Positions 14,424 to 20,937 of a stretch of 38,986 bases of DNA are shown piece after piece. Under the pieces are notes generated by a model. The model had not been told where the DNA came from and did no database searches. It was given only the letters and a program-made list of their open reading frames with translations. The DNA is from a virus (taxonomy: Duplodnaviria; Caudoviricetes): the IMG/VR virus record IMGVR_UViG_3300016474_000415, positions 1 through 38,986 of that record, one strand, 5' to 3'. The translations under genes and the position numbers were made by a program. Position 1 is the first letter of the stretch; every line of letters starts with the position of its first letter.

Positions 14424-15326
14424 TCATTTAGTCAGGCCGCCACCGGCAAGCAATCGCCAAGCGGTTGCGGCACACAGGGGCACCTGTCCGTTGCCAATGG
14501 CTTTAAGTCGGTCCACCCGAGCGGCCACCCCATGAGCCACTCGACCCACGTCGGGTTCAGACTGCCACCAATCTGCTCGCTCAAGGGCCTGGAGTTCTTG
14601 TCGTGCGTTGCTTGGCTGGCCTTGCCACTTCTCCAGTCTCTGGCGGTCGGTGTCGCGCACTTGGTCACTGCGGTCGCAAGCCCATCTCCGCTGCTGGCGC
14701 TTGCCCCCTTTCGGTTGTAGTTGCCACACACTGTCGGCGTCGGCCATCTGGCTGGCGTGTTCACCATCTGCGTCAGGCTGATGCCCGTCATGTTCTCCGT
14801 GATCGTCCCGCCTCTCTGCCCGTCCGTGGCTGACGGAGTGGCCCACAAGCCAAAACCTGTCCCGCTGATGCGGCGCCCCGACATCGGCAGCTCCCAGCAC
14901 TGTCCATCGGCAGTCATACCCGAGCGCGGCCAAGTCACCGAGGACTCGCCCAAGTCCTCGAGTAAGGAGGGCTGGGCTGTTCTCCACGTAGACGTAGCGG
15001 GGTCGAACCTCGCCAACGATCCGCGCCATGTGGCTCCACATGCCTGATCGTTCCCCGTCGATTCCTGCGCCTTTGCCGGCCACGCTGATGTCCTGGCAAG
15101 GGAACCCTCCAGACACCACGTCAACACAGCCGCGCCAAGGTCGTCCGTCAAAGGTCTGAACGTCATCCCAGATCGGGAAGGGCGGGAGAAGGCCGTCATT
15201 CTGTCGGGCGGCAAGTACGCTAGCTGCGTAGGGTTCCCACTCGACAGCGCACACGGTTTCCCATCCAAGCATGTGGCCGCCGAGGATGCCTCCACCAGCG
15301 CCTGCGAAAAGAGCCAGCTCATTCAC
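14424..15326 (-). CDS. C5-cytosine DNA methyltransferase, catalytic (alpha) polypeptide
   Basis: LFAGAGG (motif I), GGFPCQDIS (IV), YVENS (VI), HQRDRFW (VIII), RLKAIGNGQVP (X). Confidence 0.9.
   Translation of the reverse strand: MNELALFAGAGGGILGGHMLGWETVCAVEWEPYAASVLAARQNDGLLPPFPIWDDVQTFDGRPWRGCVDVVSGGFPCQDISVAGKGAGIDGERSGMWSHMARIVGEVRPRYVYVENSPALLTRGLGRVLGDLAALGYDCRWTVLGAADVGAPHQRDRFWLVGHSVSHGRAERRDDHGEHDGHQPDADGEHASQMADADSVWQLQPKGGKRQQRRWACDRSDQVRDTDRQRLEKWQGQPSNARQELQALERADWWQSEPDVGRVAHGVAARVDRLKAIGNGQVPLCAATAWRLLAGGGLTK
14432..15322 (-). CDS. Overlapping-frame methyltransferase (beta) polypeptide with TRD-like repeats and motif IX
   Basis: WATP/WPTP/CATP repeats and LNPTWVEWLMGWPLGWT; open for 296 codons inside the alpha gene; true start uncertain. 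Confidence 0.7.
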   Translation of the reverse strand: MSWLFSQALVEASSAATCLDGKPCALSSGNPTQLAYLPPDRMTAFSRPSRSGMTFRPLTDDLGAAVLTWCLEGSLARTSAWPAKAQESTGNDQACGATWRGSLARFDPATSTWRTAQPSLLEDLGESSVTWPRSGMTADGQCWELPMSGRRISGTGFGLWATPSATDGQRGGTITENMTGISLTQMVNTPARWPTPTVCGNYNRKGASASSGDGLATAVTKCATPTARDWRSGKASQATHDKNSRPLSEQIGGSLNPTWVEWLMGWPLGWTDLKPLATDRCPCVPQPLGDCLPVAA

Positions 15327-15685
15327 ACCCGCTCCACAAACATCTGCACCGCATCCGCCACCAGCTCGGCGCGATCGTCGTCGTTCTCCGGCAGCCTGGC
15401 TGAGCGCCACACGCTCACCCCTGTGGCGCGGTTGCGTGCCACCAGGTACAGCGCCGTGCGAAACGGGTCCGGAATGCTGGCCACCACCTGGCCAATGTGG
15501 CGGATGAGCAAACCGCGCTCGTCGGTGTCCAGCGCGCCGTTGGCGTCGTCATACTGCCGAGAAGCCCGCCAGCCGCGAGTGCTTGGGCACTCCACGGGGT
15601 AGCCCTCCACGGGCGTCCAACCGCGCTCGGCGCGCCACCACAGCACCAGCAGCTCGAGCGGGTCGATCTCGGGCGTCAGGGCCAT
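15323..15685 (-). CDS. Putative late-gene regulator (Q-like antiterminator)
   Basis: 120 aa LELLVLWWR..VVASIPDPFRTAL; upstream of a pR'/tR'-like element. Confidence 0.5.
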   Translation of the reverse strand: MALTPEIDPLELLVLWWRAERGWTPVEGYPVECPSTRGWRASRQYDDANGALDTDERGLLIRHIGQVVASIPDPFRTALYLVARNRATGVSVWRSARLPENDDDRAELVADAVQMFVERV

Positions 15686-19717: not shown

Positions 19718-19945
19718 TCAGGCGGCCTCGCGCACGGGGCTCAGCGCTTCCACTTCCACCCCGTGTTCGCGCGCCAGGCGCAGCAAACCGGCGGCCAGCG
19801 TGAAGCGCGGATCTGTGGTCTTGCCACGCGCGATATCGCTCACGGTGGCCTGCCCACAGTTCAACTGCAGCGCGATTTCTGGCTGAGTGACACCGGCCGC
19901 TTTGAGGCCACGCAGCAGCGCGGGCCAGTCAACAAGAGTGTTCAT
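19718..19945 (-). CDS. cro: Cro-like XRE HTH repressor
   Basis: GVTQPEIALQLNCGQATVSDIARG; divergent from cI. Confidence 0.85.
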   Translation of the reverse strand: MNTLVDWPALLRGLKAAGVTQPEIALQLNCGQATVSDIARGKTTDPRFTLAAGLLRLAREHGVEVEALSPVREAA

Positions 19946-19951
19946 GCCGGC

Positions 19952-20011
19952 AGAATATCGGCATACCGGTCACAAGTCAACAGGTCAGCCAATATCGGTT
20001 TGGCGTACGCT
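19952..20011. promoter_or_regulatory. OR region: pR (minus), pRM (plus) and operators
   Basis: Minus TTGACT-17-TATTCT 6 nt before the cro ATG; plus TACGCT 6 nt before the cI ATG; TATCGG-N4-CCGGT operator at 19956 and a half-site at 19993. Confidence 0.75.
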
Positions 20012-20017
20012 CACGGC

Positions 20018-20626
20018 ATGAAGACTCGATCTGAATACGGGTCACGCTTGAAGCAGGCGCGCCAGCACGCCAAGCTGTCGCAGAAGCAGTTGGCGGCGCT
20101 TGCCGGCATGTCGCAAGGCAACTTGTCGGAGCTGGAGACCATTGGGCACAGCAGCGGCATGACATTGCAGCTTGCGATGGCCTGCGGCGTGGACGCGCAT
20201 TGGCTGGCTACCGGGCAGGGGCAGATGCTGCAAGAGTCCGGGCAATCCCAGGTAGGACTTCCCCCAGTGGCTCATCCAGTGATACTGGATGAAATTACAG
20301 TGATTCCCAGAATAACTTGGGAGGATCTGGTGAGTCGCGCTTCTCTTCCGTTGGCCTTTGAGGTGGCTGCGCCCGATGCGTCCATGGCACCTAAAGTGCC
20401 GCAGGGCACGGTCGTGAAATTTGAGCGCGAGCTAGAGGCGCGCCCAGGCGACGGGGTGCTGGTACGTGACCGAGAGGGGCACCATTACCTGCGCATCTAC
20501 CGCGAGAAGCGCCCAGGCCACTGGGAGGCCTATGCCATCAACGACGCTTACTCCCCGCTGGACAGCCAGGCCGATGGCCTGACGGTGGTGGCCGTGCTCA
20601 CGGCGGTGGCGGGGCGCTGGGCGTGA
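20018..20626 (+). CDS. cI: CI-like repressor (XRE HTH plus degenerate S24 domain)
   Basis: RLKQARQHAKLSQKQLAALAGMSQGNLSELE; DASMAP..RPGDGVLV..AINDAY. Confidence 0.9.
   Translation: MKTRSEYGSRLKQARQHAKLSQKQLAALAGMSQGNLSELETIGHSSGMTLQLAMACGVDAHWLATGQGQMLQESGQSQVGLPPVAHPVILDEITVIPRITWEDLVSRASLPLAFEVAAPDASMAPKVPQGTVVKFERELEARPGDGVLVRDREGHHYLRIYREKRPGHWEAYAINDAYSPLDSQADGLTVVAVLTAVAGRWA
20285..20300 (+). promoter_or_regulatory. LexA (SOS) box inside cI, overlapping a putative -10
   Basis: CTGGATGAAATTACAG fits CTG-N10-CAG with AT-rich spacer; TGATACTGG overlaps it. Confidence 0.65.
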
Positions 20627-20658: not shown

Positions 20659-20862
20659 GTGGCTGCTGGCGCCATTGCGGTGGCTGTCGGTCTGGCCGTC
20701 AAGCTCGGCACACTCATCGGCGAGCTGAAGAAGGAACGCGAGATCACGGCGGCGCTGCGCGCTGAGGTTGCCAAACTCAAGCAGCACCACCACCAGGCCG
20801 AAACAGAACAGGCCGTACGCATGGCCCAGCCCTTGAAGTACCCGCGCCAACACTCGGCGTAA
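20659..20862 (+). CDS. Small membrane-anchored coiled-coil protein co-transcribed with cI (possibly 5'-interrupted)
   Basis: Hydrophobic N-terminus then coiled coil; followed by a terminator; in-frame TAG at 20653 upstream. Confidence 0.5.
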   Translation: MAAGAIAVAVGLAVKLGTLIGELKKEREITAALRAEVAKLKQHHHQAETEQAVRMAQPLKYPRQHSA

Positions 20863-20883: not shown

Positions 20884-20907
20884 AGCCCGCCGCGTGCGGG
20901 CTTTTTT
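20884..20907 (+). terminator. Immunity operon terminator
   Basis: AGCCCGC-CGCGT-GCGGGCT-TTTTT. Confidence 0.85.
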
Positions 20908-20937
20908 GCGTCTCAGGGTTTGCACTGACCCAAAATA

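What the first reader, a model, noticed from the sequence alone, without database searches (positions are those of the whole stretch)
20272..20626. Repressor that may encode its own SOS-induced antirepressor: LexA box, promoter and internal start inside an apparently non-cleavable cI
Seen: the cI linker holds an AT-rich island with CTGGATGAAATTACAG (20285-20300, CTG-N10-CAG) overlapping TGATACTGG (extended -10-like). A strong SD GGGAGG (20319-20324, formed by Trp-Glu codons) lies 5 nt before an in-frame GTG at 20330, which would give a 98-aa protein consisting only of the S24-like C-terminal domain. That domain keeps the Ser (DASM), but has HYLRIY where the catalytic Lys is expected and IPRITWEDL where the Ala-Gly cleavage site normally lies. 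Known: lambdoid CI is induced by RecA-stimulated autocleavage and oligomerises through this domain; phages with non-cleavable repressors (186, N15, Gifsy) use separate LexA-controlled antirepressors. Inference: DNA damage releases LexA, the DNA-binding-less fragment is made, and it poisons CI oligomers. This would be a one-gene induction switch. I saw no stand-alone antirepressor gene and know of no description of this design.
Basis: partly seen in the sequence, partly recalled or inferred. Interest (0 to 1): 0.88.

Follow-up and report, generated by a model that had tools for sequence, protein, structure and literature searches.

The report
Phage repressor encoding its own antirepressor
A phage repressor gene that has lost the residues for cutting itself carries conserved internal start signals that likely make its non-DNA-binding half after DNA damage, and this half would switch the repressor off and wake the dormant phage without a separate trigger gene.

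Summary
The cI (20018-20626) is one of a Burkholderiaceae prophage repressor family whose catalytic Lys is Arg in 31 of 31 divergent loci and whose Ala-Gly loop is deleted. All 31 keep an in-frame ATG/GTG/TTG 3-5 codons after the linker Trp (background 25%); Val and Leu there always use GTG/TTG; 30 have the SD. The family-wide control element is not the LexA box (6 of 31) but a palindrome, GCTCA-N5-TGAGC (24 of 31; 0 of 29 conventional repressors), 11-12 nt before a -10. The same palindrome precedes a host WYL-domain regulator gene (21 of 22 close orthologues) and recA in 16 of 18 Roseateles-group genomes, with DriD/DdaA-like geometry. A damage-induced C-terminal-domain protein is therefore very likely (~0.9); that it inactivates CI is inferred (~0.65) and untested. 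Eight literature searches found no such design.

The parts
20018..20626 (+). cI-like repressor, 202 aa: 434-type HTH, linker, catalytically dead S24 domain
20270..20284 (.). WYL-regulator-type palindrome GCTCA-N5-TGAGC, here GCTCA-TCCAG-TGATA (left arm perfect, right arm 2 mismatches), encoded by Ala-His-Pro-Val-Ile
   Evidence: best hit of both window strands on a host-promoter matrix but 13.0 bits against 26.6-39.6 for the 16 host sites
20285..20300 (.). LexA (SOS) box CTGGATGAAATTACAG, overlapping the predicted -10
20296..20301 (+). predicted -10 hexamer TACAGT, 11 nt after the palindrome; predicted +1 near 20308-20309
   Evidence: same 11-nt spacing in 16 of 16 host recA sites; xAxxxT at spacer 11 in 15 and at 12 in 10 of 28 phage loci, against 0 and 2 on the reverse side
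20300..20338 (+). predicted mRNA stem that buries the internal start codon in the full-length message and is cut away in the internal transcript (tentative)
   Evidence: mixed support
20319..20324 (+). Shine-Dalgarno GGGAGG formed by Trp101-Glu102-Asp103 codons
   Evidence: SD-like word in 30 of 31 representatives
20330..20626 (+). internal in-frame ORF, 98 aa, C-terminal domain only; starts at Trp+4, the position of the Gly of the Ala-Gly bond in 434/P22-type repressors
20381..20383 (+). Ser122, catalytic Ser column (Ser 17, Ala 13, Glu 1 of 31)
20492..20494 (+). Arg159 in the catalytic Lys column (Arg in 31 of 31 and 135 of 135)
19718..19945 (-). divergent cro-like HTH gene
20884..20910 (+). 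intrinsic terminator-like hairpin closing the cI unit, after a variable 67-aa ORF (20659-20862)

Best explanation
The repressor gene, which lacks the catalytic Lys and the cleavage loop, carries in its linker a conserved palindrome, -10-like hexamer, SD and in-frame start that likely form a DNA-damage-induced internal unit, whose predicted 98-aa product would act as an antirepressor by pairing with full-length CI. Step 1 (shown by alignment): CI cannot autocleave. Step 2 (shown as conservation, binding inferred): a host wHTH-WYL-WCX regulator binds GCTCA-N5-TGAGC over the -35 position and, sensing single-stranded DNA like DriD, DdaA and PafBC, turns the promoter on; in this phage's clade the right arm has decayed and LexA sits on the -10, so the promoter needs LexA cleavage, alone or together with the WYL protein. 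Step 3 (selection shown, translation inferred): the short transcript is read from the Trp-encoded SD and the start at Trp+4. Step 4 (inferred): the product is the oligomerisation domain without the HTH, a gene-encoded copy of the RecA cleavage product; made in excess it forms mixed dimers or higher oligomers that cannot hold the operators, and the prophage induces. Because nearly identical C-terminal domains sit on unrelated HTHs, one fragment could also induce co-resident relatives of other immunity.
For: Non-cleavable: Lys column Arg in 31 of 31 loci and 135 of 135 further cluster representatives, Ser column Ser 65, Ala 66, other 4; about 20 residues with the Ala-Gly bond deleted. Start: 31 of 31 have ATG/GTG/TTG at Trp+3..+5 against 25% of other 3-codon windows; at Trp+4 Val is GTG 4 of 4 and Leu TTG 4 of 4, at Trp+3 only 0 of 4 and 4 of 14; Met at Trp+3..+5 in 95 of 126 held-out proteins against 6% background. 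Palindrome: at most 1 mismatch in 24 of 31, against 0 of 91 control windows in the same genes and 0 of 29 conventional repressors. Host link: upstream of the WYL gene in 14 of 14 close orthologues and 0 of 5 distant WYL genes, 7 of 8 more; before recA in 16 of 28 relatives of G001, each with TAxxxT 11 nt on; once before a cas3 gene. All 7 host genomes checked that hold a prophage with an intact palindrome encode the orthologue, against 13 of 46 in the family sample. DdaA box CGWCA-N5-TGWCG, DriD box CGAC-N7-GTCG at fixed distance from the -10 (PMC12392091, PMC13010146, PMC13004042). LexA box on four separated branches, with a decayed or absent palindrome in 5 of 6 against 2 of 25. Promoter points to the C-terminal ORF, and in L002 and L060 a terminator follows about 40 nt after the stop, leaving no other gene to drive. 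Fold matches lambda CI, 186 CI and the lambda C-terminal domain 1f39. Predicted binding of fragment to full C-terminal domain: weak support, 0.34 against best control 0.00, runs agreeing in at least 95% of contacts, partner pLDDT at least 86; that mark was reached by 116 of 157 solved and 2 of 215 mismatched pairs, but at 0.60 or under by only 18 solved pairs and both mismatches, and like dimers are solved, so it shows likeness only.
Against: Nothing here shows a transcript, a protein, binding or derepression. The window's palindrome scores far below host sites. CTG..CAG can arise from the promoter's own geometry: Leu codon CTG follows the palindrome often and TACAGT is both a -10 and a LexA half-site; three relatives have the left half without the right (L021, L028, L060). 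recA carries the palindrome in only 1 of 30 genomes of the broad family sample, and five genomes with the orthologue lack it at recA, so the damage link is best in the Roseateles group; this phage's host is unknown. Three representatives have no recognisable palindrome and two of them no LexA box either (L059, L072). Hosts of LexA-type copies still encode the WYL protein (G277, G838), against my guess that LexA replaced a lost regulator. The Trp is partly a protein-level inheritance. Many relatives have a further ORF coupled to the cI stop. The invariant Arg suggests the dead site has some other retained use that this model does not explain.
Confidence: 0.63

Rival explanations
1. The internal product is made after damage but does something other than inactivate CI: a decoy that binds activated RecA or an unknown antirepressor, damps the SOS response or blocks induction of competing cleavable prophages, or stiffens repression.
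For: S24 domains bind RecA filaments (solved entries among the fold hits); the former active site keeps an invariant Arg; binding to CI has only weak predicted support.
Against: It leaves a non-cleavable repressor of an intact-looking temperate phage with no induction route: no antirepressor family among 66 ORFs. The internal signals occur only in the non-cleavable family, not in 29 conventional repressors.
Confidence: 0.15
2. The switch is mainly transcriptional: activator, LexA turnover and polymerase at the internal promoter cut full-length cI transcription, and the fragment is a secondary helper.
For: The sites lie in mid-gene, where bound protein or a strong promoter could block elongation (sequence; inference).
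Against: Does not explain selection on the SD and on start codons; already made, stable CI would still need removing.
Confidence: 0.1
3. The promoter exists to express the gene behind cI (often a signal-peptide or membrane protein) during damage; the internal ORF only couples translation.
For: In about a third of the representatives an ORF overlaps the cI stop; the window has a 67-aa ORF before the terminator.
Against: Those ORFs look unrelated to each other, and L002 and L060 have a terminator about 40 nt after the stop with full internal signals; contigs of run X3 join the cI stop to the terminator across 22-30 other letters.
Confidence: 0.07
4. The signals are by-products of protein conservation and are not used.
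For: Trp, Pro and hydrophobic residues of the linker are conserved in S24 proteins generally; the bare LexA pattern is at chance level.
Against: Codon-level bias (Ala always GCT in 27 of 28 against 13%, GTG/TTG at the start position), the same palindrome and spacing in host non-coding promoters, and absence in controls.
Confidence: 0.05

Closest known systems
LexA-controlled antirepressors of non-cleavable repressors: Salmonella Gifsy GfoA/GfhA, coliphages 186 and N15 (PMC3121763, passages read)
   Same: Repressor not cleaved; damage switches on a small protein that inactivates it; LexA box on the antirepressor promoter; possible cross-induction of other prophages.
   Different: There the antirepressor is a separate gene outside the immunity region and the Gifsy repressors are short. 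Here the candidate is the repressor's own C-terminal domain from the same reading frame, and most of the family uses a WYL-type palindrome instead of LexA.
Lambda/P22/434 CI, RecA-stimulated autocleavage (PMC3121763 passages; fold hits)
   Same: HTH plus S24 fold, lambdoid cI-cro layout; the internal start falls at the position of the cleavage bond of 434/P22-type proteins.
   Different: Lys replaced by Arg, Ser often Ala, cleavage loop deleted; the fragment is translated de novo and full-length CI is not destroyed.
Tn5/IS50 inhibitor protein (PMC4265352, passages read)
   Same: One locus makes a protein and, from a second overlapping promoter and its own start codon, an inhibitor that dimerises with it into an inactive complex (that Inh is the N-terminally shortened transposase is recalled).
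   Different: A transposase, constitutive brake; here a phage repressor and a damage-gated trigger.
WYL-domain damage activators DriD, DdaA, PafBC (PMC13004042, PMC12392091, PMC13010146, PMC11804915; passages read)
   Same: wHTH-WYL-WCX protein; 15-bp palindrome with 5/7-nt spacer at fixed distance from a -10 with no clear -35; site next to own gene in a divergent promoter; recA and cas genes among targets.
   Different: Different outer bases (GCTCA-N5-TGAGC), Burkholderiaceae hosts, and a site inside a prophage repressor gene; the passages read treat DdaA as anti-phage, not as a prophage trigger.

Membership tests
Autocleaving lambdoid CI (S24) | N-terminal HTH plus S24-fold C-terminal domain | tested here: met
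Autocleaving lambdoid CI (S24) | Ser-Lys catalytic dyad | tested here: not met
   Arg in the Lys column 31 of 31 and 135 of 135; Ser column about half Ala
Autocleaving lambdoid CI (S24) | Ala-Gly/Cys-Gly cleavage loop | tested here: not met
   about 20 residues deleted after the IPxIxW strand
LexA-controlled antirepressor systems (Gifsy, 186, N15) | Non-cleavable repressor | tested here: met
   by sequence; no biochemical test
LexA-controlled antirepressor systems (Gifsy, 186, N15) | LexA box on the promoter of the inducing protein | tested here: met
   window and 6 of 31 representatives; score within host range; binding not tested
LexA-controlled antirepressor systems (Gifsy, 186, N15) | Antirepressor is a separate gene outside the immunity region | tested here: not met
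   no antirepressor family among 66 ORFs; the only high-scoring LexA box of the window is inside cI
LexA-controlled antirepressor systems (Gifsy, 186, N15) | The induced protein binds the repressor and releases it from DNA | not testable with these tools
   needs pull-down and reporter assays; prediction is weak and by likeness
WYL damage-activator regulon (DriD/DdaA/PafBC type) | wHTH-WYL-WCX regulator in the host | tested here: met
   Pfam WYL, WCX, HTH and PafBC as best solved match; present in 7 of 7 hosts with an intact site; this phage's own host unknown
WYL damage-activator regulon (DriD/DdaA/PafBC type) | Palindromic site at fixed distance from the -10, also before the regulator's own gene | tested here: met
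   decayed in the window itself
WYL damage-activator regulon (DriD/DdaA/PafBC type) | DNA-repair genes in the regulon | tested here: inconclusive
   recA in 16 of 28 close relatives but 1 of 30 in the broad family; most other targets unnamed
WYL damage-activator regulon (DriD/DdaA/PafBC type) | ssDNA-dependent binding and activation | not testable with these tools
   inferred from the family literature
Internal-start dominant-negative inhibitors (Tn5 Inh type) | Own promoter, SD and in-frame start giving a product without the DNA-binding end | tested here: met
   as conserved sequence; expression not shown
Internal-start dominant-negative inhibitors (Tn5 Inh type) | Inactive mixed oligomers with the full-length protein | not testable with these tools
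   weak only

The most novel reading that the evidence does not exclude
A third route to prophage induction beside autocleavage and separate antirepressors: a widespread family of Burkholderiaceae prophages has replaced RecA cleavage by a gene-encoded cleavage product, wired to the host's ssDNA-sensing WYL regulator (so RecA- and LexA-independent in most members), with LexA added as a second gate several times independently, this phage being one such case; shared C-terminal domains let one prophage's fragment induce heteroimmune neighbours.
Probability: 0.5. Interest if true: 0.93.

Novelty: new variant of a known kind. Interest (0 to 1): 0.86.

Why it matters
It would explain how a large family of seemingly uninducible repressors (197 clusters at 50% identity with E up to 1e-30) is switched off, by a one-gene design that annotation cannot see. 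It would tie prophage induction to a WYL ssDNA sensor, a class so far read about here as DNA-repair and anti-phage regulators, and it names a new host regulon motif with its candidate regulator. It shows an evolutionary path from self-cleavage to a translated fragment and repeated rewiring between two damage sensors. It is directly testable in cultured, harmless hosts that carry such prophages (Roseateles depolymerans DSM 11813, R. aquatilis).

Tried and rejected
Extended -10 TGATACTGG, or GATACT as -10: not conserved in other LexA-bearing lineages (L014, L073) and no good -35; kept only as a minor possibility for this clade. Antisense promoter from the same palindrome: no -10 signal on the reverse side. 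Bare CTG-N10-CAG count: chance level. RNA evidence: of three RNA-labelled runs laid (X18, X19 probably DNA; X20), all are contigs; X20 has one 169-nt piece over 20290-20458, which shows neither start, strand nor level. Prediction that hosts of LexA-type copies lack the WYL gene: not borne out. SD-occluding hairpin: opening the SD costs 8.8 against 3.6 kcal/mol on average in long against short context (22 of 25 lower by 1 or more), but any truncation lowers it; against synonymous recoding 22 of 31 are above the mean (p 0.03); covariation is above shuffles in one register (1 of 500) and not in the next (370 of 500); in the window the long form buries the start codon rather than the SD: tentative only. 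Isolated phages: only a conventional relative (Acidovorax phage Aval, 32%) and two HTH-only hits among 50,697 records. Family outside Burkholderiaceae: found in 1 of 400 class-level genomes, the seed itself; 7 of 401 family-level genomes. The gene divergent from the WYL gene has no Pfam, NCBIfam or named Atlas family. Sixteen database proteins of 96-106 aa begin at the internal start; without DNA context they may be gene-caller choices, so they were not counted as evidence. L241 was fetched but not analysed. Earlier findings: nothing by sequence or for the WYL motif.

Full report
Setting. The window is a whole 39-kb virus record with integrase, excisionase, replication, terminase, portal and head genes. 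The finding lies in a lambdoid immunity region: cro-like gene 19718-19945 on the minus strand, cI 20018-20626 on the plus strand.

The repressor is dead as a protease. The model (mean pLDDT 86.5) matches lambda CI, 186 CI, the lambda C-terminal domain, LexA and UmuD'. Profile alignments place R159 on the catalytic Lys. I collected 61 loci, 42 distinct; five were dropped before counting (L074-L076 lack the anchoring Trp, L058 has a stop at that codon, L066 is a domain remnant with no linker, start or palindrome), and the other 37 were reduced to 31 representatives under 80% identity, median 45%. The Lys column is Arg in 31 of 31, the Ser column Ser 17, Ala 13, Glu 1. In 135 further cluster representatives, the new ones among the best 150, it is Arg 135 of 135 and Ser 65, Ala 66, other 4 (ranked by a profile that contains these columns, so somewhat enriched). 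Conventional relatives read V-P-x-I-S-W-V-x-A-G; the family reads V-P-x-I-x-W-E-x-L-M and lacks about 20 following residues. The internal start thus stands where the Gly of the Ala-Gly cleavage bond stands (cleavage at Ala-Gly: PMC3121763).

The internal start is selected as a start. An in-frame ATG (22), GTG (4) or TTG (5) lies 3-5 codons after the Trp in 31 of 31, against 709 of 2832 other three-codon windows; 30 of 31 have an SD-like word beginning in the Trp codon. Where the residue at Trp+4 is Val or Leu its codon is GTG 4 of 4 and TTG 4 of 4, while one codon earlier it is 0 of 4 and 4 of 14. In 126 of the 135 held-out proteins with an anchoring Trp, 95 have Met at Trp+3..+5 (background 6%) and 119 have that or Val/Leu at +4; 7 do not. 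Two new loci not used to find the pattern both have palindrome and ATG, one without a clear SD (L175, L185).

The family-wide element is a palindrome. Distant relatives mostly lack the LexA box but share GCTCA-N5-TGAGC, written into Ala-His/Gln-x-Val/Leu/Met-Ser: at most one mismatch in 24 of 31, at most two in 28, against 0 and 5 of 91 windows elsewhere in the same genes. Of 32 distinct conventional HTH-S24 genes from the same host family, 29 could be anchored; 0 of 29 have it in a three-times-longer stretch and 1 has a LexA-like site. An xAxxxT hexamer follows at spacer 11 (15) or 12 (10) of 28 on the sense side, 0 and 2 on the other. In the window this is GCTCA-TCCAG-TGATA, 11 nt, TACAGT.

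The palindrome is a host site. Carriers include Roseateles depolymerans, R. aquatilis and related genomes. The exact palindrome occurs 15 and 8 times in two of them against 1 and 0 for the reversed control, notably before recA and between a wHTH-WYL-WCX gene and a divergent gene; the WYL protein's best solved match is PafBC. It precedes the WYL gene in 14 of 14 orthologues at 53% or more and 0 of 5 at 37-47%, and in 7 of 8 more. It precedes recA in 16 of 28 relatives of G001 (16 of the 18 that one search lists in its genus), always with TAxxxT 11 nt on and a LexA box further down, but in only 1 of 30 genomes drawn from the whole family, where five genomes with the orthologue lack it at recA. 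Among 21 sites in five further genomes, named targets are recA, the WYL gene, a cas3 gene and a few unrelated genes; of 15 products scanned 11 have no Pfam family. Seven hosts with an intact prophage site (G001, G002, G031, G211, G836, G839, G840) all encode the orthologue; G138, whose prophage has no site, gave no match. The geometry is that of DdaA (CGWCA-N5-TGWCG, before recA and cas genes; PMC12392091, passages and one section) and DriD (CGAC-N7-GTCG; PMC13010146, passages; site over the -35 position at fixed distance from the -10, also in a divergent promoter beside its own gene; PMC13004042, passages); ssDNA activation of PafBC is in PMC11804915 (passages). That this protein binds this site and senses damage is inference.

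LexA as a later layer. Six of 31 representatives have a LexA box over the -10; on a partly resolved tree they lie on four separated branches. Five of the six have a decayed or absent palindrome, against 2 of 25 others (Fisher p 0.0007, but three of the six are one clade). The change to TGATA gives the box a TA flank at the cost of the palindrome. Against this, part of the box can fall out of the promoter's own letters, and the hosts of two LexA-type copies keep the WYL gene. I put the box being functional here at about 0.75, and cannot tell LexA-only from a double gate.

What the product does. The promoter faces the C-terminal ORF, downstream genes vary, and two lineages have a terminator about 40 nt past the stop, so the 98-aa protein is the conserved output. 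It corresponds to the part of lambda CI that was crystallised as dimer and octamer (1f39, 1kca). The repressor needs some route of inactivation and no antirepressor family was found among 66 ORFs. A shortened partner that poisons the full-length protein has a precedent in the Tn5 inhibitor (PMC4265352, passages). The complex prediction gave weak support only (0.34 against 0.00; counts and caveats under the best explanation). P0006 has the same C-terminal domain (100%) with a 51% HTH, and several proteins at about 80% have unrelated HTHs, so cross-induction is possible, as among Gifsy phages. A stem that hides the initiation region in the long message has mixed support.

Novelty. Eight searches of the held library listed no paper whose title or abstract start describes a repressor-internal antirepressor or WYL-driven prophage induction; only the six papers cited were opened, as passages, none whole, and no supplements were read. 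The library lacks most subscription and older papers, and supplementary regulon tables could hold the motif.

Verdict. Real, conserved and richer than reported: internal damage-responsive unit about 0.9, antirepressor role about 0.65, whole model 0.63. The logic is that of known antirepressor systems, the build and the sensor are new.

Noticed in passing
L030:1501-1515, L107-L119, L124, L242-L249; recA loci L131-L149: An apparently undescribed host regulon: palindrome GCTCA-N5-TGAGC with a -10 at 11 nt, tied to a PafBC-like WYL regulator, before recA in the Roseateles group and before a conserved 350-450-aa gene of unknown family divergent from the regulator.
   Followed up: partly
L218 (G010:C1:44029-44061): The same site precedes a cas3 gene, next to a second, more distant WYL gene (L125), recalling DdaA control of cas genes.
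   Followed up: no
L035:1501-1581 (G001:C1:285576-285656): Three copies of the palindrome 33 bp apart between a catalase-peroxidase gene and a Fic-domain gene.
   Followed up: no
L058:2774-2776 region: A family member with TGA in place of the linker Trp codon, splitting the gene into an HTH-only ORF and the C-terminal ORF with palindrome, SD and ATG intact; natural split or sequencing error.
   Followed up: no
window 20492-20494: The Arg replacing the catalytic Lys is invariant in 166 divergent sequences, which suggests a retained structural or binding role for the dead site.
   Followed up: no
window 19945-20018: Both cro and cI start a few bases after -10-like hexamers with no SD, so both look leaderless, whereas the internal ORF has a strong SD; this would favour excess of fragment over full-length CI.
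   Followed up: no
window 20659-20862 and the same slot in relatives: A variable slot between the cI stop and the terminator, often holding a signal-peptide or membrane ORF overlapping the stop codon, empty in some lineages.
   Followed up: partly
window 14424-15410 and 14432-15322 (both minus strand, different frames): Two almost fully overlapping ORFs in different frames both hit DNA-methyltransferase-labelled PHROG families.
   Followed up: no
window 20273-20291: An 8-3-8 inverted repeat bridging the palindrome and the LexA box; imperfect in close relatives.
   Followed up: no
L074-L076: Distant non-cleavable relatives in G122, G389 and G277 without the Trp but with Leu-Met at the same place; their upstream signals were not examined.
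   Followed up: no
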